DNA from: a virus
Lineage: Duplodnaviria > Caudoviricetes
Virus record (IMG/VR): IMGVR_UViG_3300042808_000057
Coordinates: 1-56,744 of that record
DNA: 56,744 nucleotides
Reading direction: 5' to 3' (one strand)
Part shown: piece by piece, positions 12,070 through 55,348 of the stretch
Layout of the letters: the number at the start of each line of letters is the position of its first letter
Numbering within the stretch: the stretch's first letter is position 1
Made by a program: the position numbers and the translations under genes
The notes under the pieces: generated by a model
The model's input: only the letters and a program-made list of their open reading frames with translations
Databases searched by the model: none
What the model was told of the DNA's origin: nothing

Positions 12070-12402
12070 TTACTTGAAGGCTTTGACCGCCTCAACTTGC
12101 TTATTGAGGCTGTCCACCTTTATGCCCGCCTGCCGGTACTCATGCTGCGCCTTGCGGCCCTCTCTCTCGGCGATATGTAGGGCCGTAAGAAGCTCCCTTG
12201 TGGCCTTCTGGGCCTTTTGGTGCTGGCGGGCTTCTTCTGTTATGCCGTCGAGCCGGGCCTCGTCTAAGGCTCTATTATATGCCTCCTCGCGGGCTTCTAC
12301 AGCAGCTATGCGCTTCTCTTCGGCGGTGTATTGGGCCGTGCCCTTCTCGATCAGGACGTTATAGGCTTCGGCTATCTGGTCTACGATATTGGGCGCAATC
12401 AT
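12070..12402 (-). CDS. Coiled-coil hypothetical protein
   Basis: Ala/Glu/Arg-rich helical ORF coupled to the upstream gene. Confidence 0.65.
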   Translation of the reverse strand: MIAPNIVDQIAEAYNVLIEKGTAQYTAEEKRIAAVEAREEAYNRALDEARLDGITEEARQHQKAQKATRELLTALHIAEREGRKAQHEYRQAGIKVDSLNKQVEAVKAFK

Positions 12403-12863
12403 TAGACCCCCCCAAGATAATTGCCCGTGTTATCGCTATACGTGCCGGTGGTGGCATTGTACCGGGCAGTGTCCGGCAGTAGGTTAGCGTCATTTGTGGT
12501 ATATTTTGCCCCGCCACCGACACCGCCGTCTATCTTATGGATCGGACCGCTGCCAGTTACATTAGCCACGATTAGCGGCTTATTCAGGTCTTGGAAGATG
12601 GGCGGCAAGGTATAGGCGGTATTCTTCGGCAGGTTGCCCCATTTGGCATCGGTGTATCCTACTGAGGCAAGCCAGGTGTTGAGGTCAGCAATCAGGCCAT
12701 TGTACTCAGCCTCTTTTGCCTGATCCGTTTGGCCTAAGATCGCTAAGGCTCCGATGCGATAACCTTCCTGGATGCCCTGATAATAGGCGGTTTCGGTGAA
12801 ATTCATTCCCTGGGTAGTCCCTGCCAGAAAAAGCAGGGCTAGAATTACAAGATAGTGCTTCAT
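12402..12863 (-). CDS. Secreted protein with N-terminal signal peptide
   Basis: MKHYLVILALLFLAGTTQG; sequons NFT, NVT, NAT. Confidence 0.7.
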   Translation of the reverse strand: MKHYLVILALLFLAGTTQGMNFTETAYYQGIQEGYRIGALAILGQTDQAKEAEYNGLIADLNTWLASVGYTDAKWGNLPKNTAYTLPPIFQDLNKPLIVANVTGSGPIHKIDGGVGGGAKYTTNDANLLPDTARYNATTGTYSDNTGNYLGGV

Positions 12864-13038: not shown

Positions 13039-14628
13039 ATGAAATTACTACCACTCTTAGCCATAACCCTCTTAATCGTTGGGGTCGCATTCGCGGCAGA
13101 ACCGAAGATTAACCCAGGCACTCAGATTAATTGGAATAAAAACATAAGTGCCCACATGCATGGGCTGATAAACGGATCTGGCCAGGATGCCGCCACGTAT
13201 TCGCAATTGGTGGCCGCCAATAGCTCGATGAAGTCTTACGTAGATATTGCTAACAGTTCCATGAAGGATTATGTAGATGCGCTACCCACCGGGGCGTCTA
13301 AGGTGAACATATCAGGCGACACAATGGATGGCGTGCTGAATGTCGTCAACGGCACCGGGCAGGCGGCGGCGAGCTATGCACAACTCCAGCAGCCAGGAAG
13401 TAATATATCATATGGTGGATACGTCCAATCGGGAAGGATCGCACCCACACGAAAGGCGGAGGTTTTTCTTTACACTTTGCCGTGGGTCGGATTGCAGATG
13501 GCGGTTGCAATGCGGACAGATGGATGGCCAATTTCGATCAGTGCCACAAATTCCACTGCGATCCAAGCTGCAATTACGAGCATACACAATTCTGGAGGCG
13601 GGCAAGTTGTCTTGGCATCTCGATTTACCGGAATAGCAACCACGATAAACAGTTATACCGACGTCCAGTTAGTAGGATATGGTATAAGTACTGGACTCGA
13701 AGGTACTGCAAATCCTGTGCTAAAAATTACCGGGTCGAAATCATGGATAAGGTCCGAAATATTGTCGAACATGGCAATAACTGCAACAGCAAACAACGAT
13801 GCGGTTAAGTTAGATCATCCCCTGTGTGGTGATTTAAGCAAATTAAATCTGACTGTCGCGGGGAATGGTTCATGTCTGGATATTCACGCATGGTCGGTTA
13901 GTACCATCAGTGGATGCGGTTTTATGACACAATCTAACAACCGTTCTGGCAATGGACTGAGAATCAGAGGAGACGCCACGCATGGTGCGGTTGGTGTGAA
14001 CATAGTACAAAGTTCATTTTATTATTTGGATAAAGCGATATGGATTGACACCACCACGGCAGCTTGGACACAGGGTTTGTTCCTATCGGGAATTACTGCA
14101 TGTGGCAACAACTATCATATCTGGATAGGGCAAGTGATGGATTTCACCTGCACCAACAGCAATTTAGACGGTGCCGTCATTGAAGCTATCCACATCGAAG
14201 GGGGCTCATATTTCAGATTTTCTCAGTGTTGGATTGATGCGGATTCAGGCAGTGCGATAAATGCCACTAAAATAAACAGTTTTATTTCCGTATTATCGAT
14301 TAACCAGTGTGCAATTCACGCCGACAAAACTGCGCTGATGTCGGCTATATCGGCAGCAGAGGTTAGTCATTTAATGGTGGAAAATTCACTTATTGTGGGA
14401 TATAACGGGATCAATGTCACAAAGGGATATTGTTCCTACATGAGCGTAATCGGAAATAATATGGCCACTTGCCATTATGGGATACGTGTCCCTGCGACAA
14501 ACGGCCTTGCCTTTTCGGTCATTAATAGCAATATGATGTGGGGCGTTGCTATCCCTATTTACAATACCGCAGGGATAGTAGCTAGTCGGGCGTCTGGGAA
14601 TCTAAATTTGACTGATGCCACATGGTAG
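13039..14628 (+). CDS. Right-handed beta-helix spike/adhesin with signal peptide
   Basis: AGGTGA RBS; MKLLPLLAITLLIVGVAFA; TNSTAIQAAI..GGGQVVL pectin-lyase-fold cap; fibre-like repeats DAATYSQL and ANSSMKxYVD. Confidence 0.75.
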   Translation: MKLLPLLAITLLIVGVAFAAEPKINPGTQINWNKNISAHMHGLINGSGQDAATYSQLVAANSSMKSYVDIANSSMKDYVDALPTGASKVNISGDTMDGVLNVVNGTGQAAASYAQLQQPGSNISYGGYVQSGRIAPTRKAEVFLYTLPWVGLQMAVAMRTDGWPISISATNSTAIQAAITSIHNSGGGQVVLASRFTGIATTINSYTDVQLVGYGISTGLEGTANPVLKITGSKSWIRSEILSNMAITATANNDAVKLDHPLCGDLSKLNLTVAGNGSCLDIHAWSVSTISGCGFMTQSNNRSGNGLRIRGDATHGAVGVNIVQSSFYYLDKAIWIDTTTAAWTQGLFLSGITACGNNYHIWIGQVMDFTCTNSNLDGAVIEAIHIEGGSYFRFSQCWIDADSGSAINATKINSFISVLSINQCAIHADKTALMSAISAAEVSHLMVENSLIVGYNGINVTKGYCSYMSVIGNNMATCHYGIRVPATNGLAFSVINSNMMWGVAIPIYNTAGIVASRASGNLNLTDATW

Positions 14629-34569: not shown

Positions 34570-35214
34570 ATGTGCCAACGTCCTCACCGAACCCGCCGCT
34601 GGTGCGTAAAATGCAAAGCAGTCACCCACTGGCAGATTGACCCGGCGATCAATCATAGCCGCTGCCTAATATGTCACTCTGATAGTAGGTTTAGCAGAAA
34701 AGTAAAAAAGACTACCAAGGAGGAGCCAAAGATGAATAAGCAATACGTAAAGGATGTCGTTGATGCTGCAATGGCAGCACTCCGAAAAGAGTATGACGAA
34801 AAGCTAGATGCTATCTACCAATGCCCAGATTGCGGCTCATTGGCTCTAAAAGGCTCAGATCATGTATGCCTGCAAGGGAAGATCCCTGTCTCAGATCCCG
34901 GAATGGTTGCAGCAAAGCCAAAACGCAAAACCATCAATGATTATGTGTTGGAGGTCTTGCCCTGCGAACCGCCTCTTATAGATGGCCCGATCCCCGAATA
35001 CACGACATACACCGCAAAAGGGATAACTGATATCGTTCTTTCCGAGGGATATCATGGCTCACCGGGTTCAATTGCTTCGGCCCTTTCCAGTATGGCGAAG
35101 GCCAAACGGATTATGCGCCGGGCTGCAACACTCACAATAACCTCTACTAGCAAAGCAAATAAGAAATTTGAGAAAGAGGTTCCTGGGTTCGTGTTCTGGA
35201 AGGCGGCGGTATGA
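34570..35214 (+). CDS. Zinc finger plus wHTH hypothetical protein
   Basis: CPDC motif; TAKGITDIV..SIASALSSM; start may be internal. Confidence 0.5.
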   Translation: MCQRPHRTRRWCVKCKAVTHWQIDPAINHSRCLICHSDSRFSRKVKKTTKEEPKMNKQYVKDVVDAAMAALRKEYDEKLDAIYQCPDCGSLALKGSDHVCLQGKIPVSDPGMVAAKPKRKTINDYVLEVLPCEPPLIDGPIPEYTTYTAKGITDIVLSEGYHGSPGSIASALSSMAKAKRIMRRAATLTITSTSKANKKFEKEVPGFVFWKAAV

Positions 35215-35531
35215 CAGCACAAGACAAAGTCACGGTTCTTACTTTTTTTGCGATAATCGTTATCATCGTGGCTATACTGAGCTTTGCGCAAAAGGCAGCA
35301 CCACGATATGATGCTTCGATCAATGGCACTTTATCGCATGATGCAGTTATTTATAGCCAAATATCGGCTTGCAATTGCTCCTATCAAAATCAAGACGTTG
35401 ATAAAATAATCGGGTGGTATCATAGCGGATCAGCCGATTGGGTGAGAGATGGCTTCTTTTATGACTGTTGTAACAGGACCGCGACCTACAAAAATGACAG
35501 CCAGTGGTATGATATACGTATAGATCGCTAA
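35211..35531 (+). CDS. Membrane-anchored exported protein
   Basis: N-terminal TM helix VLTFFAIIVIIVAILSFA; sequons NGT, NCS, NRT, NDS. Confidence 0.65.
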   Translation: MTAQDKVTVLTFFAIIVIIVAILSFAQKAAPRYDASINGTLSHDAVIYSQISACNCSYQNQDVDKIIGWYHSGSADWVRDGFFYDCCNRTATYKNDSQWYDIRIDR

Positions 35532-37336: not shown

Positions 37337-37807
37337 ATTGTCCACAAATCCTGTCGTATCTGCTCCCTAGGCACCGATGTCCGCCGGGCCATAGACAACG
37401 ACATAGCCGCCCTGATGCCATATGCGCAGATAGGCCGCAAGTATGCAAAGCAGATCTCCAGGGCCGATTCCCATAGATATGTTAGCGAGCACGCTAAGCA
37501 TGTGGGGAAGCTCCCTGCCCATCGTCAGCCAATCCCCGGCACGGTTGCAGAGGAACGGGAAGTGCGGCACAGGAAGACGGTGGAAGAGAGGCAGGATCAG
37601 ATCTATGATACGGCCTTTGACCTGATTAAACAGGCTGCTGAGAAGGGCGATATTAGGGGCGCGGCAAGCTGTTTGGCTCAGGCTGCGAATGTGACGGCAC
37701 AGATGAAAGGAAGCGAGCCCGATAAGAATAACGCTCCTAAAGAATCCGCCTTCTGGAAGGCATACGGCGAACGGGCCAAAGTGGTATTTGATGGCCAACA
37801 AACCTAG
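37337..37807 (+). CDS. Terminase small subunit candidate, probably ATT start
   Basis: Directly upstream of the large subunit; the frame is open from ATT 37337 and adds a CRIC..H motif ahead of an HTH-like segment. Confidence 0.6.
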   Translation: MVHKSCRICSLGTDVRRAIDNDIAALMPYAQIGRKYAKQISRADSHRYVSEHAKHVGKLPAHRQPIPGTVAEEREVRHRKTVEERQDQIYDTAFDLIKQAAEKGDIRGAASCLAQAANVTAQMKGSEPDKNNAPKESAFWKAYGERAKVVFDGQQT

Positions 37808-39086
37808 TTTTACATGGAAGACGCCGAGCCCGAAACAGGAGCAAATTCTCTATTGGTGGTATCCTGGCAACCCATACGCAAATTGCTCTTATATCGAGCT
37901 GGAAGGAGCAGTAAGAGCAGCCAAAACCATAACAGCGAGCTATTCATTTGTCAATTGGGCCACCTACACATTTGATCAGGAAGATTTAGCTCTATGCTCC
38001 AAGACCATAGGGACATGCCTAAGAAACGTAGTAAGACCTCTTAAACGCATACTTTCAGAAGAGCCAAATTATCAAGTCAAAGAGTACCGGGCCAATGCGG
38101 AAGGCCACAGGCTAGATATTACTGACATAGATCTCGATCGCACAAATTCATTTTTCATCTATGGCGGCAAAGACGAATCCAGCCAGGATCTTTTGCAGGG
38201 AAAGACCCTCGCAGGCGGCCTATTGGACGAAGTTCTCCTTTATCCTATCAGCTTTGTTAATCAGTTCCTTTCAAGGACATCCGTCGAAGGCTCTAAGGTC
38301 TGGTTTACCTTCAACCCGGAAGCACCAACCCATGAAACTTATGTTAATATCCTAGATCCCTATAAGGCGGATGGCAAGGCGTTCTATCTACACCTTACAA
38401 TGGATGACAACCCGGACCTTTCCAAAGAAGCCAGGGAACGCATAGAAGGGCAGTGGCCGATTGGCTCGGTCTGGCATAGGAGAAACGTATTAGGGCAAAG
38501 AGTCGCGGCGGAAGGCGCGGTCTTCCCCTTCTTTACCACGGATCTGAAAGATGGCTATGTAATTAACGAACTGCCCAACGATCTAACTACCTGGCTGATG
38601 GCCGGGGATTATGGCCAACAGCATTATACAGTTTATGCCCTCGTGGGTTATAGCAGCTCTCTGCAACGGTGGATCGTTGTAAAATCCTTTTTCACCAAGG
38701 ATAAGACTAATGTCGTCTATTCTCAGGAATTTAAGAGAGAGATCCTAGATTACAATGGCGGCATACCGCTTATAGAGGCTAATATTGATCCAGGCGGCGG
38801 GGGATTATCGCTCGTAAAACAATTTTCGGAAGATTACGATAACATTTCCGTTTCCTCTGCAATAAAAAAAGACGTTGCCAAAGAGATTCAAGACCTGGCT
38901 TCAGCCCTTTTCACTCACAAACTGAGCTTATACGGCCCCGGAAATAAGCAGGGAATAGAGCAATTGGTTAGCTACATGTGGAATGATACCGCCAAGCTCC
39001 GGGGCAAGGACGAACCTCTCAAGGTAAATGATGATTTCCCGGATGCTCTGCGCTACTTATGGCAAATGTGCTTGAGGTATTCTTGA
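37788..39086 (+). CDS. terL: Terminase large subunit (PBSX family)
   Basis: Walker A-like EGAVRAAKT, Walker B LLDE, TFNPEAPTH, MDDNPDL, GDYG, NDDFPDALRY. Confidence 0.93.
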   Translation: MMANKPSFTWKTPSPKQEQILYWWYPGNPYANCSYIELEGAVRAAKTITASYSFVNWATYTFDQEDLALCSKTIGTCLRNVVRPLKRILSEEPNYQVKEYRANAEGHRLDITDIDLDRTNSFFIYGGKDESSQDLLQGKTLAGGLLDEVLLYPISFVNQFLSRTSVEGSKVWFTFNPEAPTHETYVNILDPYKADGKAFYLHLTMDDNPDLSKEARERIEGQWPIGSVWHRRNVLGQRVAAEGAVFPFFTTDLKDGYVINELPNDLTTWLMAGDYGQQHYTVYALVGYSSSLQRWIVVKSFFTKDKTNVVYSQEFKREILDYNGGIPLIEANIDPGGGGLSLVKQFSEDYDNISVSSAIKKDVAKEIQDLASALFTHKLSLYGPGNKQGIEQLVSYMWNDTAKLRGKDEPLKVNDDFPDALRYLWQMCLRYS

Positions 39087-39297: not shown

Positions 39298-40704
39298 ATG
39301 ATTACAAGTTTAGATATTTTCACGCAGGGCAAGCCTTGGCCGCCCAATGATGCTGATGAGACTGCCCGGCTAGCCGAACATGCCAAAAATAGGAAGCTCT
39401 ACAATGAACTCCTGACTGAGATCTTCCCGAAATATGCCGCTTATATGGGGGATAAAACCCACGACGATAAGAAGCTGGAAATAATTCTTGGAATGGCCGA
39501 GACAGCCACGACCAACTATATGGATCTCCTCTTAGGGGAAGATCCTGAGATAGTGGCACCCACTCTCTACGAATGCCCCCATGAGGAAGTATTTATAGAT
39601 GACAGCCGGTACGGTATCGGCCTCTATGAGATCTCCGAGGACGGCATAAGCGTTCTCTCTCCTGAGAATGTTTATCTTGTTACAGATCCGGGCAATATCC
39701 GCAAGGTGACTGCCTATGTGGCCTTTTCGGAGTTCAAGCAAGGCGAGAAGGCTTACGTTAAGTTTACGATCCATGAACCGGGCAGCATAAGCCACAAAGT
39801 CTATGCGATTGTAGATGGCAAGCTCGGAGAAAAGCAAGACCTGGCGGCATTTCCCGACTTCGCAGGCATAACCCTAACCAATCCTGATGAGGGACGGCAA
39901 GATACCGGCGTTGACGACCTTCTCATAGTCCGGGTGGATAACTCCCTCTCATCAGAACGCTATTATGGCCGATCTGACTACACTCCCTCAGTACATAGCC
40001 TCATCGAGGCTCTTGTGCTGTCTTTTGCTCGACGCTCTGAAGTCCTGGCTAAATTCTCGCGTCCGGTGCCGATGGTACCCGAAAGCGCAATGCGCTTCGA
40101 CCACGCAAAGCAGAGATGGGTTTTCAAGACAGAGAATGCCATAATTCTGAAGGAAGGGCAGCCAACGGCGGGCTACATGAATCCGCCTTCTTCTCTAGCA
40201 GATGTAGAGCGGGAAATAGAGCAATTGTTTACTCAGCTTTTGATGAAGTTGAAGATAAGCAAAGTGCTTCTGGCTGGAGAGAACCAGGGGCAAGCGGAAT
40301 CAGGCACTGCACTCAGGATAAGATTAATACCGACTTTGAGCAAAGTGCGTAAGTTTGCTTCGGCTCTATTGGTTGCCGCCCCTCTGGTTATGTCTCTGAA
40401 GTCCAAGTTGGATGTGGCCCTATCGCTGCCTAATGCGATTGCCTTTGAGCCTGATGAAGTCAAGATAACTTTGCAGGATGGCATTCCCTCTGACCCGATG
40501 GAAGAGGCCCAAATTGGCTTAGTGCGATCTCAGTCCATTGCTGCCCTAAAGACGGCGGGCGTGCTCGATAACAAAGCGGCCATGCGTGTCGCTATCGGCT
40601 ATGGCATCCTGACACATGAGATGCTTGCGCCATCGGACGACGCAGCACTTGAGGCGGTAATCCAGACAGTTAGTGATGATTCAATCCAGCAAGGGGGCTT
40701 TTAG
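39298..40704 (+). CDS. Portal protein (SPP1 gp6-like)
   Basis: 468 aa after the terminase; WPP, YGRSDY and ESGTALRIRL motifs. Confidence 0.88.
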   Translation: MITSLDIFTQGKPWPPNDADETARLAEHAKNRKLYNELLTEIFPKYAAYMGDKTHDDKKLEIILGMAETATTNYMDLLLGEDPEIVAPTLYECPHEEVFIDDSRYGIGLYEISEDGISVLSPENVYLVTDPGNIRKVTAYVAFSEFKQGEKAYVKFTIHEPGSISHKVYAIVDGKLGEKQDLAAFPDFAGITLTNPDEGRQDTGVDDLLIVRVDNSLSSERYYGRSDYTPSVHSLIEALVLSFARRSEVLAKFSRPVPMVPESAMRFDHAKQRWVFKTENAIILKEGQPTAGYMNPPSSLADVEREIEQLFTQLLMKLKISKVLLAGENQGQAESGTALRIRLIPTLSKVRKFASALLVAAPLVMSLKSKLDVALSLPNAIAFEPDEVKITLQDGIPSDPMEEAQIGLVRSQSIAALKTAGVLDNKAAMRVAIGYGILTHEMLAPSDDAALEAVIQTVSDDSIQQGGF

Positions 40705-41040: not shown

Positions 41041-41676
41041 ATGGTTGATGAAATTAACGAGCAGACTTCCAGCTCTAAATTGGAAGGCGATTCCACGTCA
41101 GAATCTAAAACAAAGACGGAAAAGAAACTTGAATTTTCACAAGACGAATTGGATAAGAAATTTGCGGAGCGACAGAAGCGCGGAGAAGACGCCGCTGCAA
41201 AGCGTTTCCAAAAGCAAATAGACGATCTCAATTCGCAAATTGAGGAGTTCAAAGGGAAAGACCTGGGCGAACTGGATAAGCTCAAAAACAAGGTCGAAAA
41301 GCTGACCAAAGATCTGAATGAAAAGGATACTGAGCTATCTGGCATTCTCCTAAAGAACGCAAAGATGGAAGCCCTACTCAACGCGGGCATTCCATCGGCA
41401 AAGATCCCCAAGCTCCTCAAAAGAGTATCAGGCACGACTCCTGAAGAAATCCAGTCGGACGTTCTTGAACTTATTGAGGATCTGAAACTTATCGAGCCGG
41501 GCCCGGAAACACCTCATAAGGGCGCAAAGGGCAGCGGCCATCAGAAGGTGAATGATCCTCCAGGCGTTAAGACATTCACAAGAAAACAACTTGCCGCCAT
41601 GACGGGCGAAGAATACGAAACAAATCGGGCAGACATCATGAAATCGATGGAAGCAGGCAAGATAACGGAAGGTTAA
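41041..41676 (+). CDS. Capsid scaffolding protein
   Basis: FSQDELDK, coiled coil, C-terminal MTGEEYE..IMKSMEAGKI; directly before the capsid gene. Confidence 0.85.
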   Translation: MVDEINEQTSSSKLEGDSTSESKTKTEKKLEFSQDELDKKFAERQKRGEDAAAKRFQKQIDDLNSQIEEFKGKDLGELDKLKNKVEKLTKDLNEKDTELSGILLKNAKMEALLNAGIPSAKIPKLLKRVSGTTPEEIQSDVLELIEDLKLIEPGPETPHKGAKGSGHQKVNDPPGVKTFTRKQLAAMTGEEYETNRADIMKSMEAGKITEG

Positions 41677-41680: not shown

Positions 41681-42547
41681 ATGGGACTTGGAAATTTTAT
41701 ACCTGAGATATGGTCTAACGAAGTACAAAGGAACTTAGAGAAGTTCCTTGTCTTCGGACAGGCTGGAATTGTAAATCGTGATTATGAAGGGCTTATTTCC
41801 GGCGCGGGTGACACCGTTAAGATTAACGGTATTGGCCCGGTGACTGTCAAGACCTACACCAAGAACACTGACATTGCCGACCCCGAAACCCTCACGGATG
41901 CCCAAACCACCCTCCTGATCGATCAGCAGGATTACTTCAACTTCCAGGTTGATGACATAGACCGGGCGCAGCAGGCCCCTAAGATCATGGCCGCCGCAAT
42001 GGCCGAAGCATCCTATGCACTCAGGGACGGCGTTGACCAGTTCTTAGCATCCTTCTATACGGATGCCAGCGCAAGCAACCTGGTAGGCTCCGATGCATCC
42101 CCCAAGGTGCCGAATAACACCGCCGGGGATGCTCAGAACGTCTACAATCTCCTGGTAGATTGTGCGGTCAAACTGACTGATAGCAAAGTTCCGACTGAGG
42201 GTCGATGGGTAATCGTTCCTCCCTGGTTCTATGGCAGGCTCCTCAAAGAGCCCAATTTCATAGATGCTTCCAAGGCAGGCACCACAGCGGGCCTGAGAAA
42301 TGGCCAGGTTGGGCAGGCGGCAGGATTCCAGATCCTGCAATCTCATAACGTGCCCAACACCGGAGCCACAAAGTACAAGATCATGTTCGGAACCAGCCGC
42401 GCCCTCTCCTTTGCCAATCAGATCGTCAAGGTGGAGCCCTACCGGGTGGAGAAGAGGTTTGCCGATGCCGTAAAGGGCCTGAATGTGTACGGCGCAAAGG
42501 TAGTTAGACCTGAAGCCCTTGGCGTTCTGACTTGCAATACTGCTTAG
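41681..42547 (+). CDS. Major capsid protein (HK97 fold, P22 gp5-like family)
   Basis: NFIPEIWS..VNRDYEG..GDTVKI..FADAVKGLNVYGAKVVRPEAL. Confidence 0.93.
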   Translation: MGLGNFIPEIWSNEVQRNLEKFLVFGQAGIVNRDYEGLISGAGDTVKINGIGPVTVKTYTKNTDIADPETLTDAQTTLLIDQQDYFNFQVDDIDRAQQAPKIMAAAMAEASYALRDGVDQFLASFYTDASASNLVGSDASPKVPNNTAGDAQNVYNLLVDCAVKLTDSKVPTEGRWVIVPPWFYGRLLKEPNFIDASKAGTTAGLRNGQVGQAAGFQILQSHNVPNTGATKYKIMFGTSRALSFANQIVKVEPYRVEKRFADAVKGLNVYGAKVVRPEALGVLTCNTA

Positions 42548-42558
42548 GAGGTGCTGAA

Positions 42559-42996
42559 ATGAGACAAATCCTTATTCTTTTCATTGCATTTCTGGCAATG
42601 ATCGGTATGGCCGGGGCAACCGATACCGCGATTACGGCAGCGGTGGCACTCGATGATTACAATGATTATGCGTCCGCACCTTCCGGTTGGACTACACTAA
42701 ACGGCAACGGCTCAATTAATTCCTATGTGTGGCCTGCCGGATACGAGCTTATCCTGATGGCCAATGTGACGGGCATACTTGATGATAATTATCTGTCAAT
42801 CATCGCAGGAGATAACCCGCCTGCATTCCGGTCTATGCTCGGAAATATGACGATCTCGGATTGGACGGATGGTGGAAATGAGGTGCGCTACATCGGCCCG
42901 CTGGAGTCTGCAAGATTCATCAATGATACGGGCTACCTGACCATATCCAGCCTCAATCTGACGGGCAAGGTGGCCATCCTGAAGGTAAAAGGATGA
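42559..42996 (+). CDS. Capsid decoration-like protein with N-terminal signal peptide
   Basis: GGAGGTG RBS; MRQILILFIAFLAMIGMAGA; AGDNPPAF..G..IGPLESARF motif recalled from proteins encoded after capsid genes of this type. Confidence 0.65.
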   Translation: MRQILILFIAFLAMIGMAGATDTAITAAVALDDYNDYASAPSGWTTLNGNGSINSYVWPAGYELILMANVTGILDDNYLSIIAGDNPPAFRSMLGNMTISDWTDGGNEVRYIGPLESARFINDTGYLTISSLNLTGKVAILKVKG

Positions 42997-43127
42997 TCTA
43001 CAAGAATAAGCGCACCGGGGCGGTTTGGGAGGTTCCCGGCGGATCTCCCGCCGCCAACAGGATAGCCGCCAATCCCAACGAATACGAGATTGTAGAGGAG
43101 AAAAAGAAGAAGGGGGCCCCTGAGTGA
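42993..43127 (+). CDS. Small head-associated protein (44 aa; not in ORF track)
   Basis: MIYKNKRTGAVWEV..NEYEIVEE; overlaps both neighbours. Confidence 0.6.
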   Translation: MIYKNKRTGAVWEVPGGSPAANRIAANPNEYEIVEEKKKKGAPE

Positions 43128-43438
43128 CGGCCCCCGATAACTTCCCGGACATGGGCCGGGCGATCGTGGTCGCGCTGGAAAATATGGCCACGGCGCTTGC
43201 CGTCAATTCCAATCAGGGCGAAGGTAGCATAGTGGCCGGGGCAAACTATGCCGACGTGACGCATTCGCTTGGCGCGGTTCCTACGTTCATTGCCATCACT
43301 CCTGAGACTGGTTTGGATGCGCCTTATGAGATTGTGCGAGCAAGCACTTCAGCAACCATTTTCAGAGTGGCCTATAAAGGCGGGCTAACCCAACCGGCAG
43401 GAACTACGGGATACTTCTTGTGGAGGGCAATCGAATGA
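43124..43438 (+). CDS. Small beta-rich virion protein
   Basis: VTHSLGAVPTFIAITP..FLWRA, typical of fibre-tip-like domains. Confidence 0.6.
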   Translation: MTAPDNFPDMGRAIVVALENMATALAVNSNQGEGSIVAGANYADVTHSLGAVPTFIAITPETGLDAPYEIVRASTSATIFRVAYKGGLTQPAGTTGYFLWRAIE

Positions 43439-44226
43439 TTAAGAAACTTCTTATAATGTTCTTGCTGCTATCGGTTGCTTCTGCCTATCAGCTACCAAGT
43501 ACATACGTGAATGGCGGGCTGAATGTCAAGAATACATCGGCCCTGAATGTCACCACTGCAACCACGTTGGCGGTTTCCGGCACCACGGACCTGAATGGCG
43601 CAACCACTGCCGCAAATATTACGCTCGATGCCAACAAAAGCATAGTGTTGTCTGGCACAGGCAGGATAAGTGGCGCGGCTTCCGTGAGTGCAACCGCTTT
43701 GGCGGGCGAGCTAACCGGAAATGTCACCGGCACAGGAACTTTGCAAGGCGAACAAATCACATCCACCGACGATATAACAGCGGGCGGCATAATCCGCGGC
43801 GAGCACCTGACCAGCACCGATGATGCCACCGTTTACGATACGCTCACCACAGATCACATTTGGGTAAATGAATCGTCTGATTTCCTCGGAGAAATCGAGG
43901 CATCGGTGGCGATAGACCGCACGCCGTATGAAATCGATGTTAATACAAGCATCTCGGACAGTAATATTCCTGGCCTGTATTTTGTCGGTAATGCCAGTGT
44001 CAATCAGTCTATTGAGTTGCCTACTGCTGCTGCTGGAGATGGAACGACCTTAACCTTTGTGGTCGCAACCGATCCTGGGTCGTTTTACTTTATCTTGGAA
44101 GGAGCAGGGTCCGAAAAGATCAACGGTGCCGCAAATAAGATGTCTACTGCGCTGTATGATGTAATCGAGGTTACAAGCAACGGTACGGCCTGGTTTGTAA
44201 CGGATAGTGTGGGAACTTGGGCATAG
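43435..44226 (+). CDS. Head fibre / decoration protein with N-terminal signal peptide
   Basis: MIKKLLIMFLLLSVASA; repeats GE(Q/H)(I/L)TSTDD; C-terminal LPTAAAGDG..KING..SNGTAW beta-sandwich. Confidence 0.65.
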   Translation: MIKKLLIMFLLLSVASAYQLPSTYVNGGLNVKNTSALNVTTATTLAVSGTTDLNGATTAANITLDANKSIVLSGTGRISGAASVSATALAGELTGNVTGTGTLQGEQITSTDDITAGGIIRGEHLTSTDDATVYDTLTTDHIWVNESSDFLGEIEASVAIDRTPYEIDVNTSISDSNIPGLYFVGNASVNQSIELPTAAAGDGTTLTFVVATDPGSFYFILEGAGSEKINGAANKMSTALYDVIEVTSNGTAWFVTDSVGTWA

Positions 44227-44254: not shown

Positions 44255-44794
44255 ATGACTGATACTGCCGTTTCTGATAGCTACGTCGCGACCGTTGAAG
44301 CGGCGGATGCGTTTTTTGCAAAGAAAATGAGCGCCGCGACTTGGGCACTTTCGACAACTACCTCTGCGATCAAGGCCAAAGCATTACAGGAGGCCACGGC
44401 CATAATTGATGCCCTGCCCCTGGCAGGCTATCGCTTTGAGTCTCATTACCTGAAAAATGGCACCCAATACGACCTCAACCAGGATGGCCTAACCCAAACG
44501 CTAGAATTTCCAAGAGTCATCGATGGGGTCACGGTGGATTATGATTTTGCTACTGATCTGCCATTGGTGCCGCAAGCGGTGAAAGATGCATGTTGCTGGA
44601 TAGCTCTCTCTCTGATTGATGCTGATTCGGATATCTCCGAGAAGTCCTTGCAAGAGGCTGGCATACAATCTTTCAGCCGGGGCAAACTTTCTGTGACCTT
44701 TGTTAGCGGCGCTGCAAATCGATTTCTCGGATTGCCTCAGAAGGCTTACGACTTGCTGAAGAAGTTCTTAGATCAAACTCCGGTGGTTCTGTGA
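44255..44794 (+). CDS. Head-tail adaptor protein
   Basis: DSYVATVEAADAFF..ALQEATAIID..LEFPR..VPQAVKDACCWIAL. Confidence 0.8.
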   Translation: MTDTAVSDSYVATVEAADAFFAKKMSAATWALSTTTSAIKAKALQEATAIIDALPLAGYRFESHYLKNGTQYDLNQDGLTQTLEFPRVIDGVTVDYDFATDLPLVPQAVKDACCWIALSLIDADSDISEKSLQEAGIQSFSRGKLSVTFVSGAANRFLGLPQKAYDLLKKFLDQTPVVL

Positions 44795-45336
44795 AAATCC
44801 TTACCTTCCCGGATGCCGCCTACATCGTCACCAAGGCCCCCGTAACCTTCCATAACGGTGTTTCTTCTGCGAACTTAACACTTACTGGAACATGGCCCGC
44901 AAACGGCTCTAAGATCGCTATAACGGCCTCTGCGATCACGGGTCACGCGGATTGTAGCGGCACTCTGGTAATCAATGGGACTGAGACGATAACTTTTACT
45001 CAGGCAGGACGGAAAACAAATACTGTGAACCTGACTGCCCGGCCTGCTATCACCACATCAAACTTAGACTGCAATCTCCTGATCACCTGCCTGGATTCGG
45101 GGCTTGCTCCTATCGAAACCGAAACTGCCGCCGCCACCAAGATCCAATTTGAGAATACCTCTTCGGGCTTTTTCAATTCTCAAGGAGTCTGGACGGTCTA
45201 TTCTGGTAGTTATGCACTTTGCAAGGATGCCGCGATAGTTAGCGATGTCTTGCGATATGGCTCGGACATGATTATCAAAAAGGTGGACGTAGAAAAATGG
45301 TTTAGCAAAATTCTGTATTATATTTTCTACCTATGA
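44791..45336 (+). CDS. Head closure-like protein
   Basis: Position after the adaptor; beta-rich sequence. Confidence 0.5.
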   Translation: MKILTFPDAAYIVTKAPVTFHNGVSSANLTLTGTWPANGSKIAITASAITGHADCSGTLVINGTETITFTQAGRKTNTVNLTARPAITTSNLDCNLLITCLDSGLAPIETETAAATKIQFENTSSGFFNSQGVWTVYSGSYALCKDAAIVSDVLRYGSDMIIKKVDVEKWFSKILYYIFYL

Positions 45337-49947: not shown

Positions 49948-50454
49948 ATGTCCGATAAGTCCGGTGTTTACGTTATAAGATGCCATAACCACTACAAGAT
50001 TGGCAAAGCAGATGATCTAAAGCAGCGACTTCATGATCTTCAAGTAGGATGCCCTTACGAGCTATCCGTTTCTGCCTTCTTGCCATGTGAGCTATCCGAG
50101 GCGTTCAAACTTGAGCAAATGCTTCATAGAAAATACAGTGGTTGCCGTGCTCGTGGTGAATGGTTCAAGTTAAGCAGAGCGGATCTAAAGGAGATATGTA
50201 GTTTCAATGAACGCGGCATATCCGGGTTAATCGATGTCTCTCTCAAAGAGCATACTTTTGCTGAATATGACAAGGCAGTTCTTGATATAATAAGATCAAT
50301 ATATAAAATAAACAAAATCGCATTTGAATCTATAATTATCGAATGTTCTGAGCAGATAGGAATAAGTGAAATCGACATCAAGGAAACTATTAAGCGGTTA
50401 ATGCAATATGGTGAAATAGAATCTCCATGCAAAGGCGCATTCCAGCCAGCTTGA
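49948..50454 (+). CDS. GIY-YIG (T5orf172/MUG113-like) protein with C-terminal wHTH
   Basis: GVYVI..YKIGKA..RL..LQVGCP..LEQMLH..GEWF; C-terminal TIKRLMQYGEIESP resembles an archaeal MCM-type wHTH. Confidence 0.8.
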   Translation: MSDKSGVYVIRCHNHYKIGKADDLKQRLHDLQVGCPYELSVSAFLPCELSEAFKLEQMLHRKYSGCRARGEWFKLSRADLKEICSFNERGISGLIDVSLKEHTFAEYDKAVLDIIRSIYKINKIAFESIIIECSEQIGISEIDIKETIKRLMQYGEIESPCKGAFQPA

Positions 50455-50491: not shown

Positions 50492-50743
50492 TTGTCTCAT
50501 ACTAAGCGAATCTACAACCGCAAGCCCCTTCTCGGAGGCCCTGGCCTGAAAGGATGGATCACAAGCAATCTCGATGATCCTGAGATAGTAGCCATCGCAG
50601 AGGCTAATTATGTCTTTAGGCGGTATGGCGAATACTGCATGGGGCATTGCCATCATTGTAGGGATTGGCGATTAGATAGCAGAAGAAGACAGGAATGGAA
50701 GAGGGAGGAGAGATATGAATCAACTGCCAGATTGCATTTTTGA
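50492..50743 (+). CDS. Small basic hypothetical protein
   Basis: AGGAG RBS and TTG start; CMGHCHHC motif. Confidence 0.5.
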   Translation: MSHTKRIYNRKPLLGGPGLKGWITSNLDDPEIVAIAEANYVFRRYGEYCMGHCHHCRDWRLDSRRRQEWKREERYESTARLHF

Positions 50744-51407
50744 AAGTTCAAACGATGATGGCATACCAGATCTCCTGAAATCGATGGAAGCCGATTATGC
50801 AGATTACCCTCTCGCTTATGGATCTGTTCGCCGGGATCGCGATTATGTAGGCAGGACGATTCATTTCTATGTGGATGACTACCGCTTTAACGCTCTCGGA
50901 AATGCCGTCGAATACGGGCAAGAGTTCTGGAAGCTCTGGGAAAGACCTGACCGTATTTGGCGAAGCGGTGCACCCTCATTTTGTGAGATTAACTTTTCCA
51001 CTTCCAATGCACAACCAAGGGCGCGGGCCATCTGGCAGATCTACAAGAAAAGACATCTCTCGCGATATCTTCAGGAACAGGGGATGAGATGTTTTGTTGA
51101 CCTAAATGTCGCTCCAAGATGGGCTGAAGAGAACCTTCTAGGCGTGCCTCTCGGATGGAAGGCATTTGCTACTAGGGTACATAAAAACGACTCGTTGCAA
51201 ACGATTACAGATCAAGCCTCCCTGGCAGAAAGCCACGCGGGAACCGATCAAATCAAGTTCATGGTCTATGGGCACCGTCGCGAAATAGAAGAATTGTGCA
51301 AACGATCCGGCTGGATATATGTCTCTGAGCAGGCTAGTATCTGGCAAAAGCGAGATGAATCTAAGGCAATGAAGCGAATGGAAAGACCAATCGAGGTGTT
51401 TTGTTAA
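50715..51407 (+). CDS. DUF4417-like protein
   Basis: IHFYVDDYRF..NFST..AIWQIYKKRHLSRYLQEQG..LLGVP. Confidence 0.7.
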   Translation: MNQLPDCIFESSNDDGIPDLLKSMEADYADYPLAYGSVRRDRDYVGRTIHFYVDDYRFNALGNAVEYGQEFWKLWERPDRIWRSGAPSFCEINFSTSNAQPRARAIWQIYKKRHLSRYLQEQGMRCFVDLNVAPRWAEENLLGVPLGWKAFATRVHKNDSLQTITDQASLAESHAGTDQIKFMVYGHRREIEELCKRSGWIYVSEQASIWQKRDESKAMKRMERPIEVFC

Positions 51408-53270: not shown

Positions 53271-53696
53271 ATGTCTATAATTTCTGATATATGCAACCAC
53301 CTAGCGGATATGCCTAACCAGACACTACCAATCTATCCTATGCAATTCCCATCCGATGTGGTCAACTGCATTTGCATTTTCCCTACAGGCGGCGGCGTGG
53401 GTGGCAATATCGGTAATAGGCCCTCCGCGACCTTCGGCCAATCTCTCGCGACAGTGGGATATATCGATTATCCCGGTTGCCAAATTCAGGTTCGCTATAC
53501 CGATCCTTGGAATGCTTTTCGCATAGCAGAGGACATACGGCAATGGCTGGATGAGAACCTGCCCACCGGATATCTGAGATGTGATACTAATAGGAGCCTG
53601 CCCGACGATTTGACGAATGATGCTGATTTAGGGATGTCCGGAGGCCCGGCATATCGATTTTCGGTTGACTTTAGCATGAGGAAGGTGCGGGCATAA
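53271..53696 (+). CDS. Tail terminator / tail completion protein
   Basis: IDYPGCQIQVR..AFRIAEDI..YRFSVDF. Confidence 0.7.
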   Translation: MSIISDICNHLADMPNQTLPIYPMQFPSDVVNCICIFPTGGGVGGNIGNRPSATFGQSLATVGYIDYPGCQIQVRYTDPWNAFRIAEDIRQWLDENLPTGYLRCDTNRSLPDDLTNDADLGMSGGPAYRFSVDFSMRKVRA

Positions 53697-55348
53697 TGGT
53701 AGATACTCCTATCCAGCAGATTGGCGATGAATACGCCGCGAAGGTTGCAGAATCCTTTGAGGCGTGGGCAGAAGATGCAAAGGCATCCTACCCAAACATC
53801 AAACCGTTTGACCCGACTCCCATCTTACAAGAGGCCATGATGGCCGCTGGTGATGCTCAGTTGGCAGAACTTAGTGGCCTGGTAGGATTCAAGGTTAAGT
53901 TTGACCTTAAATCTCCCGAAGCAATCGCCTGGGCGAAAGAATATGGTGCTGAGCAAGTCAAATATGTCAATGCTTCCACCAAAACCGCGATTAGACAGAT
54001 AACCGTTCGCGGCTTGAACGATGGCCTATCGCCGCAAGCTCAGAAGAAAGCGATAAAAGAAATCGTCGGGCTCTTGCCTCAGCATGTGGTTGCAGTCCAA
54101 TCTTACCGCGAGAGCTTGTTATCTTCCGGCATGGATTCTGGCAGCGTTGACCGGCTTGCTGCTAAATATGTAGATAAGTTGCTGAGATATCGGGCCGGGA
54201 CCATTGGCTTAACAGAATCACATACCGCGACCAATGAAGGCGCAAGACAGGTCAATCAAGATGCTGTTAAGCGTGGTGTCCTGGCAGAAAATGAATACCT
54301 GCAAGAATGGCTTTCCGCCGGGGATAAGCGGCGGTGTTCTCGATGTGGTGGCCTGCAAGGCAAGACTGCTAAGATAAACGGGGATTTTGCGGGTGATGGC
54401 AGGGGGCCGCCTTTACATCCGAGATGTCGGTGTACGGTGGTCCTGGTTAAGAATCCTGAATATAAACCAATTACCCGAATACAAGACCTGATAGCAGGGA
54501 TAGATTCGAAGTCGCTCAGATATAGGCCATTGTCAGAGGAAAGGGCTGCGATTCTTGCACAAGCAAACCGTGATGTTCTCGCGGCACGATCTAAATTAAC
54601 TGCCTTCGACCTCAAAAAAATAAATCCGTTGGGTGCGAGATTCGAGGCAGCGGTTGGAAAAGAACAGGAAGCTTTGCAAGTAGAATTAGAAAAACTCGCA
54701 GTCAAACGAGCCACACTATCGAACGCATTGGCAGAAAAAAGCTTAAAAGTTGATCGGATACGGCTATCTCAAGTTTATTCAAGGGGATATGATCTATCCG
54801 GTTTTAAGATTGACGGCGATTTGGTGGACGTATCTGTAACTGAATTAAATAACGGAATGCGTATAATTGTTAATAAGGAGTTCGCAGACAAATCAATCTA
54901 CAACCCCGCCGTTTTGTTCCGAAAATATGAAGAGATGCCAGATCTTCTGAAGTCTGGCATTGATGACATATACGTTCTCGGACGCGACGGCATTAATCCG
55001 GGATGGGGCTTGTCAGGGGCAGACGCATCACATAGCGTAGATGAAATCGGGCGGCATTATGTAACATTATATAGGCCGTCCGGTGTGGGCGTATTCAAGC
55101 ACGAAGCAGCACACGGATTAGAGCAAAAGATGCCGAGAATATCTGGCAAGATGTTTTCTGATTCGCCCATGTGGGTAGAAGCACAAAAGGCAGATGTAAA
55201 ATACCCATCGCGGTATGCAAAAGAGGGCGGTAACTGGGAAGACTTTGCGGATTCTGTTGACATCTTCCTGAGCATGCCTGAAAAGTTTAAAGCCGCATGT
55301 CCCAACCGGTCAAAGATATTGGAGGAAATGTTCAATGTCAAAGACTGA
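53696..55348 (+). CDS. MuF / SPP1 gp7-like head morphogenesis protein with C-terminal HExxH metallopeptidase-like domain
   Basis: TIGLTE..WLSAGDKRRCSRC..PPLHPRCRC, then a coiled coil and FKHEAAHGLE..SRYA..EDFADSV..CPNR. Confidence 0.85.
   Translation: MVDTPIQQIGDEYAAKVAESFEAWAEDAKASYPNIKPFDPTPILQEAMMAAGDAQLAELSGLVGFKVKFDLKSPEAIAWAKEYGAEQVKYVNASTKTAIRQITVRGLNDGLSPQAQKKAIKEIVGLLPQHVVAVQSYRESLLSSGMDSGSVDRLAAKYVDKLLRYRAGTIGLTESHTATNEGARQVNQDAVKRGVLAENEYLQEWLSAGDKRRCSRCGGLQGKTAKINGDFAGDGRGPPLHPRCRCTVVLVKNPEYKPITRIQDLIAGIDSKSLRYRPLSEERAAILAQANRDVLAARSKLTAFDLKKINPLGARFEAAVGKEQEALQVELEKLAVKRATLSNALAEKSLKVDRIRLSQVYSRGYDLSGFKIDGDLVDVSVTELNNGMRIIVNKEFADKSIYNPAVLFRKYEEMPDLLKSGIDDIYVLGRDGINPGWGLSGADASHSVDEIGRHYVTLYRPSGVGVFKHEAAHGLEQKMPRISGKMFSDSPMWVEAQKADVKYPSRYAKEGGNWEDFADSVDIFLSMPEKFKAACPNRSKILEEMFNVKD

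What the first reader, a model, noticed from the sequence alone, without database searches (positions are those of the whole stretch)
42559..44226. Capsid decoration and head-fibre proteins carry Sec signal peptides and dense N-glycosylation sequons
Seen: between the capsid and head-tail adaptor genes, two ORFs begin with cleavable-type leaders (MRQILILFIAFLAMIGMAGA and MIKKLLIMFLLLSVASA) at starts supported by an RBS or ATGA coupling. They have 5 and 10 N-x-S/T sequons (10 of 16 Asn in the second), against 1 in the capsid protein. The spike at 13039 shows the same pattern. Known: Caudoviricetes assemble in the cytoplasm, while archaeal AglB glycosylates proteins on the outer face of the membrane. 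From recall, the AGDxPPA/IGPxESARF family follows similar capsid genes in bacterial phages without a leader. Inferred: these parts are exported, glycosylated and loaded onto capsids outside the cytoplasm (for example inside a sheath or at lysis), giving a host-glycan-coated tailed virion. Caveat: Ser/Thr-rich proteins gain sequons by chance; the leaderless ORF at 44791 has 5.
Basis: partly seen in the sequence, partly recalled or inferred. Interest (0 to 1): 0.85.

Follow-up and report, generated by a model that had tools for sequence, protein, structure and literature searches.

The report
Exported glycoproteins in tailed-virus head module
A tailed virus of the sheathed methanogen Methanothrix encodes, among its capsid genes, proteins that carry export signals and conserved sugar-attachment sites, which suggests that parts of the virus particle, or helpers made with it, are finished outside the cell membrane.

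Summary
ORF 42559-42996 (gpA) and ORF 43435-44226 (gpC) start with Sec-type leaders ending in A-x-A, and carry 5 and 10 N-x-S/T sequons (shuffle p 0.008 and 0.002). Leaders and sequon columns are conserved in relatives.

gpA belongs to a large family (694 representatives) that follows the capsid gene. Most members are about 120 aa, have no leader, and begin where the predicted cleavage site lies. The leader-bearing forms are compatible with one clade, occur in Methanothrix genomes and viruses, and have about 4.5 sequons against 1.25. Leaderless members in the same host family have 0-1. The leaderless ORF at 44791 has unconserved sequons.

Export and N-glycosylation are therefore likely (about 0.8). 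That the proteins then sit on capsids is untested (about 0.4). No known decoration fold was found. gpA and the capsid gene recombine freely. One Methanothrix genome keeps a leaderless and a leader-bearing copy side by side. A published model has viruses of sheathed archaea secreting proteins to weaken the sheath for exit; this is the main rival. Relatives carry glycosyltransferase genes next to the exported fibre.

The parts
41681..42547 (+). Major capsid protein (288 aa). No leader; 1 sequon of 19 Asn.
   Evidence: phrog_267 E 4e-77, Pfam Phage_capsid_4; shuffle test.
42546..42553 (+). Shine-Dalgarno-like AGGAGGTG, 5 nt before the gpA start.
   Evidence: Read.
42559..42996 (+). gpA (P0001, 145 aa). 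Residues 1-20 are the Sec-type leader (42559-42618), with predicted cleavage after A-G-A. The mature part is a beta-sandwich with sequons at N50, N69, N96, N122 and N133.
   Evidence: (phrog_24894, E 1.7e-8).
42993..43127 (+). 44-aa ORF overlapping both neighbours (ATGA, GTGA). A similar small ORF precedes the gpB/gpC pair in L037.
43124..43438 (+). gpB (P0003, 104 aa). No leader, 0 sequons. Present in all 5 loci that have a gpC homolog.
43435..44226 (+). gpC (P0002, 263 aa). Residues 1-17 are the leader (43435-43485), ending A-S-A. It has a Thr/Asn-rich fibre-like middle and a C-terminal beta-sandwich (172-261) of the kind found in phage tailspikes. 10 sequons.
44255..44794 (+). Head-tail adaptor (179 aa), no leader.
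   Evidence: phrog_477 E 4e-14, Pfam DnaT_2.
44791..45336 (+). Leaderless 181-aa ORF used as a control. Its 5 sequons are not conserved.
13039..14628 (+). Leader-bearing parallel beta-helix protein (P0004; 529 aa from ATG 13039). 14 sequons. Its conserved N-terminal module is joined to different C-termini in relatives.
12402..12863 (-). Leader-bearing 153-aa protein (P0248) with paralogs in a Methanothrix chromosome. Another exported product of this virus.
35211..35531 (+). 106-aa protein (P0247) with an N-terminal membrane segment. 4 of 5 Asn lie in sequons (p 0.0015).

Best explanation
gpA and gpC are late proteins, made with the capsid genes of a Methanothrix tailed virus. They are sent through the Sec pathway, lose a leader of about 17-20 residues, and are N-glycosylated by the host AglB on the outer face of the membrane.

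gpA comes from a family of leaderless beta-sandwich proteins of about 120 aa that follows the capsid gene in hundreds of bacterial phages. One clade of Methanothrix viruses added the leader, apparently once, and then fixed 4-6 sequons. gpC is a fibre with a conserved N-terminus and an exchangeable tailspike-type C-terminal domain. The beta-helix protein at 13039 follows the same plan.

Proposed mechanism:
1. The glycoproteins collect in the closed space between the cell membrane and the protein sheath.
2. Capsids and tails assemble in the cytoplasm.
3. When the membrane is breached, the particles meet and bind the glycoproteins, which gives glycan-bearing outer parts.

Shown here: leader pattern, single-clade origin, sequon enrichment and conservation, link between leader and sequons, host oligosaccharyltransferase, and gene position.

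Inferred: export, cleavage, glycosylation (together about 0.8) and binding to virions (about 0.4 for the whole chain).
For: Leader:
- 54 of 67 gpA relatives have at least 15 residues before the aligned mature start. 10 more begin inside the leader. 3 have none.
- A at -3 in 47 of 54 and A at -1 in 49 of 54.
- Bacterial proviruses in Chloroflexota and Acidimicrobiaceae MAGs encode the family straight after the capsid gene. Their residue 2 aligns with the first residue after the predicted cleavage site.
- Family size: 694 representatives at E<=0.001. Of the best 150, 15 pass my hydrophobicity cut and 2 more visibly carry the leader. The remaining 133 start at profile position 20-22.
- Tree of 151 rows: 19 of 20 leader rows lie in one set with support 98. 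Two changes are needed against 19 for shuffled labels. A single clade is not rejected (p-AU 0.75).

Sequons:
- Conserved columns at N50 (50 of 67), N69 (65), N96 (51), N122 (64, with nine different triplets) and N133 (52).
- Mean 4.5 sequons in leader forms against 1.25 in leaderless forms.
- In 86 viral and genomic loci, 59 have the leader (4-7 sequons; 2 in two cut copies; GC 0.46-0.56). 24 have no leader (0-3 sequons). 3 are unclear.
- Within Methanotrichaceae genomes, leaderless copies have 0-1 sequons and leader-bearing copies 4-7.
- In the related virus vir515, the gpA homolog is the only one of 57 CDS with a leader. It has 7 sequons against 1.7 expected.

gpC and the spike:
- gpC family: 15 of 19 homologs have a leader, 1 is cut, and 3 distant ones have none. 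Sequon columns are kept in 13 of 14, 13 of 15 and 12 of 15.
- Spike: 4 of 4 homologs have a leader.

Host: two Methanothrix genomes with related proviruses each have two STT3/AglB genes.

Virion ancestry:
- A capsid gene lies next to gpA in 83 of 86 loci.
- The genes overlap tightly from capsid to neck.
- The motifs invariant in bacterial and archaeal forms (G84, A89-R91, G113-F120) are retained.
- The gpC C-terminus matches tailspike domains: Solidus gp83 (Z 10.7, rmsd 2.5, 81 aligned), CBA120 TSP4 (Z 9.5) and the Pa223 capsid spike (Z 6.5).
- Bacterial loci L070, L071, L080 and L081 have a multi-domain paralog before the single-domain one.

Glycan theme: GT2 genes (E 4e-16 and 1e-15), plus pieces with weaker GT4 (E 1e-4, below Pfam's cut-off) and GT1 (E 4.5e-6) matches, lie next to the exported fibre in L037 and L011.
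Against: - No experiment and no SignalP run. Export, cleavage and glycosylation are all inferred.
- The gpA model (pLDDT 88.5) is a generic beta-sandwich. No solved decoration protein came up (best Z 7.2, SIDT1 and lambda tail-tip domains), so the capsid role rests on gene order.
- gpA and the capsid gene recombine. Mature gpA 97-100% identical is paired with capsid proteins 50-53% identical (for example L015 against L016). Capsid proteins 94-96% identical are paired with gpA 46-50% identical (L014-L019 against L040). Pearson r is 0.51 over 1225 pairs.
- One Methanothrix genome (L005 = L105) has a leaderless copy (1 sequon) and a leader-bearing copy (6 sequons) in tandem, so the exported copy may do something else.
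- In 14 of 28 non-redundant loci, nothing lies between gpA and the adaptor, so gpC is optional cargo.
- The true tail fibres (9944-12062) have no leader.
- Two leader-bearing homologs are labelled as bacterial MAGs: Mesotoga (P0059) and Dehalococcoidia (L003). Both are on short contigs.
- For the haloarchaeal tailed virus HRTV-DL1, deleting aglB did not affect the virus (PMC10384203, passages read).
Confidence: 0.4

Rival explanations
1. The proteins are exported and glycosylated but never join the virion. They act on the host envelope, for instance by loosening or binding the sheath, plugs or S-layer to allow exit, or by removing or masking receptors so that progeny are not trapped and the cell is not superinfected. 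On this reading gpA is an exapted capsid-module gene.
For: [quoted passage not shown] It proposes that they weaken the sheath for egress.
- This window encodes further exported proteins with no virion flavour: P0248, with 4 paralogs in a Methanothrix chromosome, and P0247.
- gpA is exchanged independently of the capsid gene.
- Leaderless and leader-bearing copies coexist in L105.
- P0004 is a parallel beta-helix of the depolymerase kind.
- The leader clade is so far confined to a sheathed host family.
Against: - gpA has about 700 relatives in phages of bacteria that have no archaeal sheath, and it keeps their invariant motifs.
- Neither gpC nor its family profile matches anything in two Methanothrix genomes.
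- gpA, gpC and P0004 all have virion-appendage features: gene position, a tailspike-type domain, and a conserved N-terminal module with swapped C-termini.
- gpA is translationally placed right behind the capsid gene, with a strong ribosome-binding site.
Confidence: 0.35
2. The leader is not cleaved but acts as a signal anchor. The glycosylated domains are displayed on the membrane of the infected or lysogenic cell, for example as superinfection-exclusion proteins.
For: - In the Methanothrix provirus L004, the slot after gpA holds a 209-aa protein with an N-terminal membrane segment and no A-x-A. It has 6 sequons (p 0.04).
- P0247 has the same build.
- Proviruses with these genes are common: 15 of 105 Methanotrichaceae genomes.
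Against: - gpA, gpC and P0004 have short h-regions (10-14 residues) followed by a conserved A-x-A, the pattern of cleaved leaders.
- The residues just after the site are highly conserved and match the free N-terminus of the bacterial forms.
- The genes sit in the late structural operon, not in a lysogeny module.
Confidence: 0.08
3. Leaders and sequons have no function in export. The proteins stay in the cytoplasm and decorate capsids in the ordinary way, and the sequons reflect Asn/Ser/Thr-rich composition.
For: - Ser/Thr-rich phage fibres gain sequons by chance. The leaderless ORF 44791 has 5.
- Large leaderless proteins in the same slot in relatives carry 11 and 13.
Against: - Those leaderless proteins are not enriched over shuffles (p 0.62, 0.14, 0.05, 0.19, 0.24, 0.81, 0.89).
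- The sequons of 44791 are not conserved.
- Sequons of gpA and gpC are enriched, exceed the reversed motif, and sit in conserved columns whose middle residue varies.
- A hydrophobic leader with K/R before it and A-x-A after it is kept across proteins only 40% identical.
Confidence: 0.04

Closest known systems
Secreted sheath-like (SH-like) proteins of viruses of sheathed archaea (PMC11576556; section 11 and passages read, supplements not available)
   Same: Same host group (Methanotrichales). Virus-encoded proteins with Sec signal peptides, made to act outside the membrane. The authors also raise a possible role in particle assembly.
   Different: - SH-like proteins are 159-288 aa with a core of two six-stranded sheets, and some are 75-94% identical to host sheath proteins.
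- gpA is 145 aa with about 8 strands in its model. It has hundreds of leaderless bacterial-phage relatives, and its only matches in Methanotrichaceae genomes lie beside capsid genes.
- gpC has no host match.
- The main text of that paper does not mention glycosylation or sequons.
- Whether gpC-type proteins are in its Table S1f could not be checked.
Capsid decoration proteins that bind finished capsids (lambda gpD, T4 Hoc and Soc, phage L Dec; recalled, not tested here)
   Same: Small accessory proteins encoded in the head module. They can be added after the shell is built, so late or outside addition is physically plausible. A multi-domain paralog in bacterial relatives recalls Hoc-like chains.
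   Different: Those proteins are cytoplasmic, have no leader and are unglycosylated. No fold or sequence link to gpA was found.
Glycoproteins of enveloped, pleomorphic and spindle-shaped archaeal viruses (HRPV-1/HFPV-1 spike, SSV1, SSV19; as summarised in PMC10384203, passages read)
   Same: Virion surface proteins N-glycosylated by the host machinery after passing the membrane.
   Different: Those viruses bud or carry membranes, so their proteins pass the membrane naturally. A tailed, lytic, membrane-free virion has no known route of this kind.
Mycobacteriophage virion glycosylation by phage glycosyltransferases (recalled, not read here)
   Same: Tailed phages with glycosyltransferase genes near the structural genes and sugar-coated capsids. 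Relatives of this virus have GT2 genes in the head module.
   Different: There the sugars are added in the cytoplasm directly to capsid and tail proteins. Here the signature is Sec export plus N-x-S/T sites for an outward-facing oligosaccharyltransferase.
Acidianus two-tailed virus, which grows its tails outside the host (recalled)
   Same: A precedent for virion morphogenesis continuing outside the cell in an archaeal virus.
   Different: It has a different virus architecture. No separately exported components are known, and no link to glycosylation.

Membership tests
phrog_24894 / family with the AGDNPPAFR and IGPLESARF motifs, encoded after the capsid gene | Sequence match to the family profile | tested here: met
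   phrog_24894 E 1.7e-8, residues 40-143. A profile search found 694 representatives.
phrog_24894 / family with the AGDNPPAFR and IGPLESARF motifs, encoded after the capsid gene | Invariant motif residues | tested here: met
   G84, A89, F90, R91, G95, G113-E116 and A118-F120 are invariant in 67 sequences.
phrog_24894 / family with the AGDNPPAFR and IGPLESARF motifs, encoded after the capsid gene | Gene directly downstream of a phrog_267-type capsid gene | tested here: met
   83 of 86 loci; also in the window.
phrog_24894 / family with the AGDNPPAFR and IGPLESARF motifs, encoded after the capsid gene | About 120 aa, starting at the first beta-strand with no leader (the majority form) | tested here: not met
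   gpA has 20 extra N-terminal residues; 133 of the 150 best representatives do not. It is a variant within the family.
Sec signal peptide cleaved by signal peptidase I | Basic n-region, 10-15 residue hydrophobic h-region, small residues at -3 and -1 | tested here: met
Sec signal peptide cleaved by signal peptidase I | Call by a trained predictor (SignalP, archaeal model) and experimental cleavage | not testable with these tools
   No predictor was on hand and no protein data exist.
Archaeal N-glycoprotein (AglB substrate) | N-x-S/T sequons enriched over composition and conserved in position | tested here: met
Archaeal N-glycoprotein (AglB substrate) | Host has an STT3/AglB oligosaccharyltransferase | tested here: met
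   2 of 2 Methanothrix genomes with related proviruses, two genes each, above the Pfam cut-off. The exact host of this virus is not known.
Archaeal N-glycoprotein (AglB substrate) | Glycan attached to Asn | not testable with these tools
   Needs glycoproteomics.
Capsid decoration protein | Binds the outside of the capsid shell; present in virions | tested here: inconclusive
   No virion data exist. Independent shuffling of gpA and the capsid gene neither fits nor excludes it.
Capsid decoration protein | Fold shared with a solved decoration or cement protein | tested here: inconclusive
   Foldseek against the PDB gave nothing at E<=0.001. VIA-align best Z was 7.2, to unrelated beta-sandwiches.
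Viral sheath-like (SH-like) proteins | Core of two six-stranded sheets; similarity to host sheath proteins | tested here: inconclusive
   The gpA model has about 8 strands. No sheath chain was among the fold matches. gpC and its profile were not found in two Methanothrix genomes with these queries.
Phage fibre / tailspike proteins (gpC, P0004) | Domain shared with solved tailspikes; conserved N-terminal module with exchangeable C-terminus | tested here: met
   gpC residues 172-261 against Solidus gp83 (Z 10.7) and CBA120 TSP4 (Z 9.5), well above the next unrelated rows. Module swapping is seen. P0004 is a beta-helix by Atlas leads only.

The most novel reading that the evidence does not exclude
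Two-compartment assembly of a tailed virus. Head, tail and DNA are put together in the cytoplasm. The outermost parts (a capsid-binding beta-sandwich, a fibre and a beta-helix spike) are exported beforehand, N-glycosylated by the host, and stored in the sheath-enclosed space. They snap onto the particles only after the membrane gives way. The released virion then wears host-made (or, where the virus carries glycosyltransferases, virus-edited) N-glycans.
Probability: 0.33. Interest if true: 0.9.

Novelty: new variant of a known kind. Interest (0 to 1): 0.72.

Why it matters
Tailed viruses are thought to be built entirely in the cytoplasm. N-glycans in archaea are added only outside the membrane. 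A head-module gene family that gained an export leader and conserved glycosylation sites in one archaeal-virus clade gives a concrete, testable case of how a tailed virion might obtain N-glycans.

If the proteins do not join the virion, it is instead a clean example of a structural gene recruited for work at the cell envelope. Either way:
- It gives a sequence marker (leader plus sequons on the gene after the capsid gene) for viruses of Methanothrix, a globally important acetate-using methanogen with no cultured virus.
- It points to virus-encoded glycosyltransferases in the same gene slot.
- It would also help explain faint glycoprotein bands reported for other tailed archaeal viruses.

Tried and rejected
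- Complex prediction of the capsid protein with mature gpA (alignments A4 and A2, residues 21-145) gave no answer: score 0.00, mark 0.32, controls not run. It counts neither way.
- Fold searches of the gpA model against the PDB (Foldseek, VIA-align wide) gave only generic beta-sandwich matches. BFVD gave small uncharacterised phage proteins.
- A profile search against PDB sequences found nothing relevant.
- Pfam found nothing for gpA, gpB, P0004, P0247 or P0248, and only sub-threshold Bactofilin/DUF5649 for gpC.
- A leaderless bacterial member (P0105) searched against 50,697 deposited phage genomes found only vir515. No cultured phage with this family is at hand to say what it does.
- The AF2 model of gpC is poor outside the C-terminal domain (mean pLDDT 66).
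- I first took P0248 for the published sheath-like protein. Its sequence looks partly helical and was not modelled, so I do not name it so.
- No glycosyltransferase was found among the 39 window ORFs scanned with Pfam; the smaller ORFs were not scanned.
- The look-up of sequencing runs did not complete in three tries, so no expression data were obtained.
- The 2023 compendium of methanogen viruses is not held. Supplements of PMC11576556 were not available.
- Literature searches found no paper that describes leaders or sequons on head-module proteins of tailed archaeal viruses. This holds only for the held library.
Full report
**What the window is.** The window is a complete virus record of 56,744 bp with a 127-bp direct terminal repeat.

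Its head module reads as follows:
- Large terminase, 37788-39086.
- Portal, 39298-40704.
- Scaffold-like gene, 41041-41676.
- Major capsid protein, 41681-42547 (phrog_267, E 4e-77).
- gpA, 42559-42996.
- A 44-aa ORF, 42993-43127.
- gpB, 43124-43438.
- gpC, 43435-44226.
- Head-tail adaptor, 44255-44794 (phrog_477).
- A 181-aa ORF, 44791-45336.

From gpA onward the genes overlap by ATGA or GTGA or lie within 28 nt of each other. gpA has AGGAGGTG 5 nt before its ATG.

The tail module wraps around the record ends. It holds a major tail protein (56063-56461), a tape measure (2662-7620) and three leaderless tail-fibre paralogs (9944-12062).

**Host.** The only similar deposited genome is Caudoviricetes sp. 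vir515, with host given as Methanosarcinales. In one-genome-per-species collections, leader-bearing gpA homologs next to capsid genes 70-73% identical to the window's lie in Methanothrix genomes (L004, in a 3.6-Mb chromosome; L005). A survey found hits in 15 of 105 genomes of that family. The window also encodes a FilR1-type methanogen regulator. I take the host to be Methanothrix or a close relative. This is an inference.

Shuffling each protein 2000 times gives:
- gpA: 5 sequons against 1.4 expected (p 0.008).
- gpC: 10 against 3.9 (p 0.002).
- The spike: 14 against 7.2 (p 0.0065).
- The capsid protein: 1 against 2.1.

The fourth ORF with p<0.01 is 35211-35531, which also has an N-terminal membrane segment. 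This gives 4 of 9 ORFs with an N-terminal hydrophobic segment against 0 of 110 others (Fisher p 1.6e-5). The gene list behind this count is a crude longest-ORF call and contains spurious ORFs.

**The leader is an addition, gained once.** Of 67 gpA relatives at 40-75% identity, 54 have a full leader, 10 were called from a start inside it, and 3 distant ones have none.

Proviruses in Chloroflexota and Acidimicrobiaceae MAGs encode a 123-131-aa homolog straight after a capsid gene. In the Chloroflexota loci a 179-aa ORF follows in the adaptor position. Their second residue aligns with the first residue after the predicted A-G-A cleavage site of gpA.

A profile search of 1.84 billion representatives found 694 family members. 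Among the best 150, 133 start at profile position 20-22, which means they have no leader.

On a tree of 151 members, 19 of the 20 leader-bearing rows form one well-supported set. Forcing all 20 together is not rejected. That tree is a quick one on 123 columns, with many unresolved forks.

**Sequons go with the leader, not with the host or the composition.**
- Five sequon columns are kept in 50-65 of 67 gpA relatives. At N122 the middle residue varies across nine triplets, as expected if the sequon itself is selected.
- Leader forms average 4.5 sequons and leaderless forms 1.25.
- In 86 loci, 59 have the leader (4-7 sequons; 2 in two cut copies; GC 0.46-0.56). 24 have no leader (0-3 sequons; GC 0.58-0.69, except L082 at 0.51 and L087 at 0.39). 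3 are unclear (L026, L062, L078).
- Inside Methanotrichaceae genomes, leaderless copies (L107-L110) have 0-1 sequons and leader-bearing copies 4-7. L107 has GC 0.60 and may be contamination.
- In vir515 the gpA homolog is the only one of 57 CDS with a leader. It has 7 sequons against 1.7 expected.
- Large leaderless proteins found between gpA and the adaptor in relatives carry up to 13 sequons, but no more than their composition predicts.
- Two Methanothrix genomes with related proviruses each have two STT3/AglB genes.

**gpC and the spike.**
- Fifteen of 19 gpC homologs have a leader, one is cut at a contig end, and three distant leaderless ones share only the GEQ.TSTDD repeats.
- The mature N-terminus of gpC is conserved while the C-terminal half is swapped among relatives.
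- Sequon columns are kept in 13 of 14, 13 of 15 and 12 of 15.
- The confident part of the model (residues 172-261) matches domains of solved phage tailspikes well above the background: Z 10.7, 9.5, 9.2 and 8.7. It also matches a capsid spike of phage Pa223 at Z 6.5.
- P0004 looks like a parallel beta-helix by Atlas leads. All four of its homologs have a leader, and they share its N-terminal module with different C-termini.
- Three exported proteins therefore have the build of virion appendages, while the core parts and the three tail-fibre paralogs have no leader.

**What is not shown.**
- Nothing here shows that gpA binds capsids.
- Its model (pLDDT 88.5) is a plain beta-sandwich with no solved decoration relative.
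- No cultured phage has the family.
- Two results argue against a tight capsid partnership. Nearly identical gpA is found with capsid proteins about 50% identical, and the reverse also occurs. One Methanothrix genome carries a leaderless and a leader-bearing copy in tandem.
- In favour of a virion partner: the motifs invariant in bacterial and archaeal forms are kept after the leader was gained, and the only gene shared by nearly all loci is the capsid gene. This is an argument, not a test.

**Literature.** PMC11576556 (section 11 and passages read) reports that viruses of sheathed archaea, including 13 of 16 Methanotrichales viruses, encode secreted sheath-like proteins of 159-288 aa. It proposes that they disturb sheath assembly to let particles out, and it mentions help in particle assembly as another option. 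Its screen took proteins of 150-350 aa, so gpA (145 aa) fell below it. Its main text does not mention glycosylation.

gpA and gpC do not look sheath-derived. I could not see the paper's supplementary tables.

PMC10384203 (passages read) reports faint glycoprotein staining of a haloarchaeal tailed virus, and no effect of deleting aglB. My eight searches of the held library found no description of leaders or sequons on head-module proteins of tailed archaeal viruses.

**Glycosyltransferases.** In relatives L037 and L011, a GT2 gene (E 4e-16 and 1e-15) lies directly after the exported fibre gene, between gpA and the adaptor. L011 also has pieces with weaker GT4 (E 1e-4, below Pfam's cut-off) and GT1 (E 4.5e-6) matches there. 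This fits a virus interest in the glycan that ends up on exported proteins. None was found among the window ORFs that I scanned.

**Verdict.** Export and N-glycosylation of gpA, gpC and the spike are likely (about 0.8). Their final place is open: on the virion after the membrane is breached inside the sheath (about 0.4 for the whole chain), at the envelope for exit or exclusion (about 0.35), or as membrane-displayed proteins (about 0.08). Chance is unlikely (about 0.04).

Noticed in passing
L037:4206-4892; L011:4791-6486: Relatives carry a GT2 glycosyltransferase gene in the head module, right after the leader-bearing fibre gene and before the head-tail adaptor. L011 also has pieces with weaker GT4 and GT1 matches there, possibly a split gene.
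   Followed up: partly
L105:1501-2205 (= L005:5610-6438): A Methanothrix MAG has two family members in tandem after the capsid gene: a leaderless 120-aa copy with 1 sequon, then a leader-bearing 150-aa copy with 6.
   Followed up: partly
L014-L025, L040 (viral contigs): gpA and the capsid gene are exchanged independently. The same gpA (97-100% identical) occurs with two capsid types about 50% identical to each other, so a recombination joint lies between the two genes.
   Followed up: partly
window 12402-12863 (-): A 153-aa leader-bearing protein on the opposite strand, between the tail fibres and the spike. It has four paralogs spread over a Methanothrix chromosome (best E 7e-13, 35% identity). 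It is a host-derived exported protein of unknown role.
   Followed up: partly
window 35211-35531 (+): A 106-aa protein with an N-terminal membrane segment, four Cys, and 4 of 5 Asn in sequons (p 0.0015). No family match.
   Followed up: no
window 16503-17252 (+): Virus-encoded regulator with a FilR1 middle domain (methanogenesis regulatory protein family, E 5e-25) and an N-terminal helix-turn-helix.
   Followed up: no
window 18457-19194 (+): Membrane protein with a weak UbiA prenyltransferase match (E 8e-8, just under the Pfam cut-off). Unusual for a tailed virus.
   Followed up: no
window 21617-22294, 27261-27779 (-), 49948-50454, 50715-51407: A dCMP deaminase gene, two T5orf172/MUG113 genes and a DUF4417 gene. 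The stretch 45.4-53.7 kb, with mostly non-structural genes, splits the head genes from the Mu F-like minor head gene (53696-55348) and the major tail gene.
   Followed up: no
L080:1775-3230, L070:3153-4086, L071:3726-4803, L081:1-847: In high-GC, presumably bacterial, viral contigs, a longer protein with three to four repeats of the gpA-type domain precedes the single-domain gene.
   Followed up: no
L003 (2.7-kb contig); P0059: Two leader-bearing gpA homologs sit in MAGs labelled Dehalococcoidia and Mesotoga. The contigs are short and the genes are of the Methanothrix-virus type, so mis-binning is likely, but a bacterial host is not excluded.
   Followed up: no
L004:6656-7285: In the Methanothrix provirus, the slot after gpA holds an unrelated 209-aa protein with an N-terminal membrane anchor and 6 sequons (p 0.04). 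The slot seems to collect exported cargo.
   Followed up: partly
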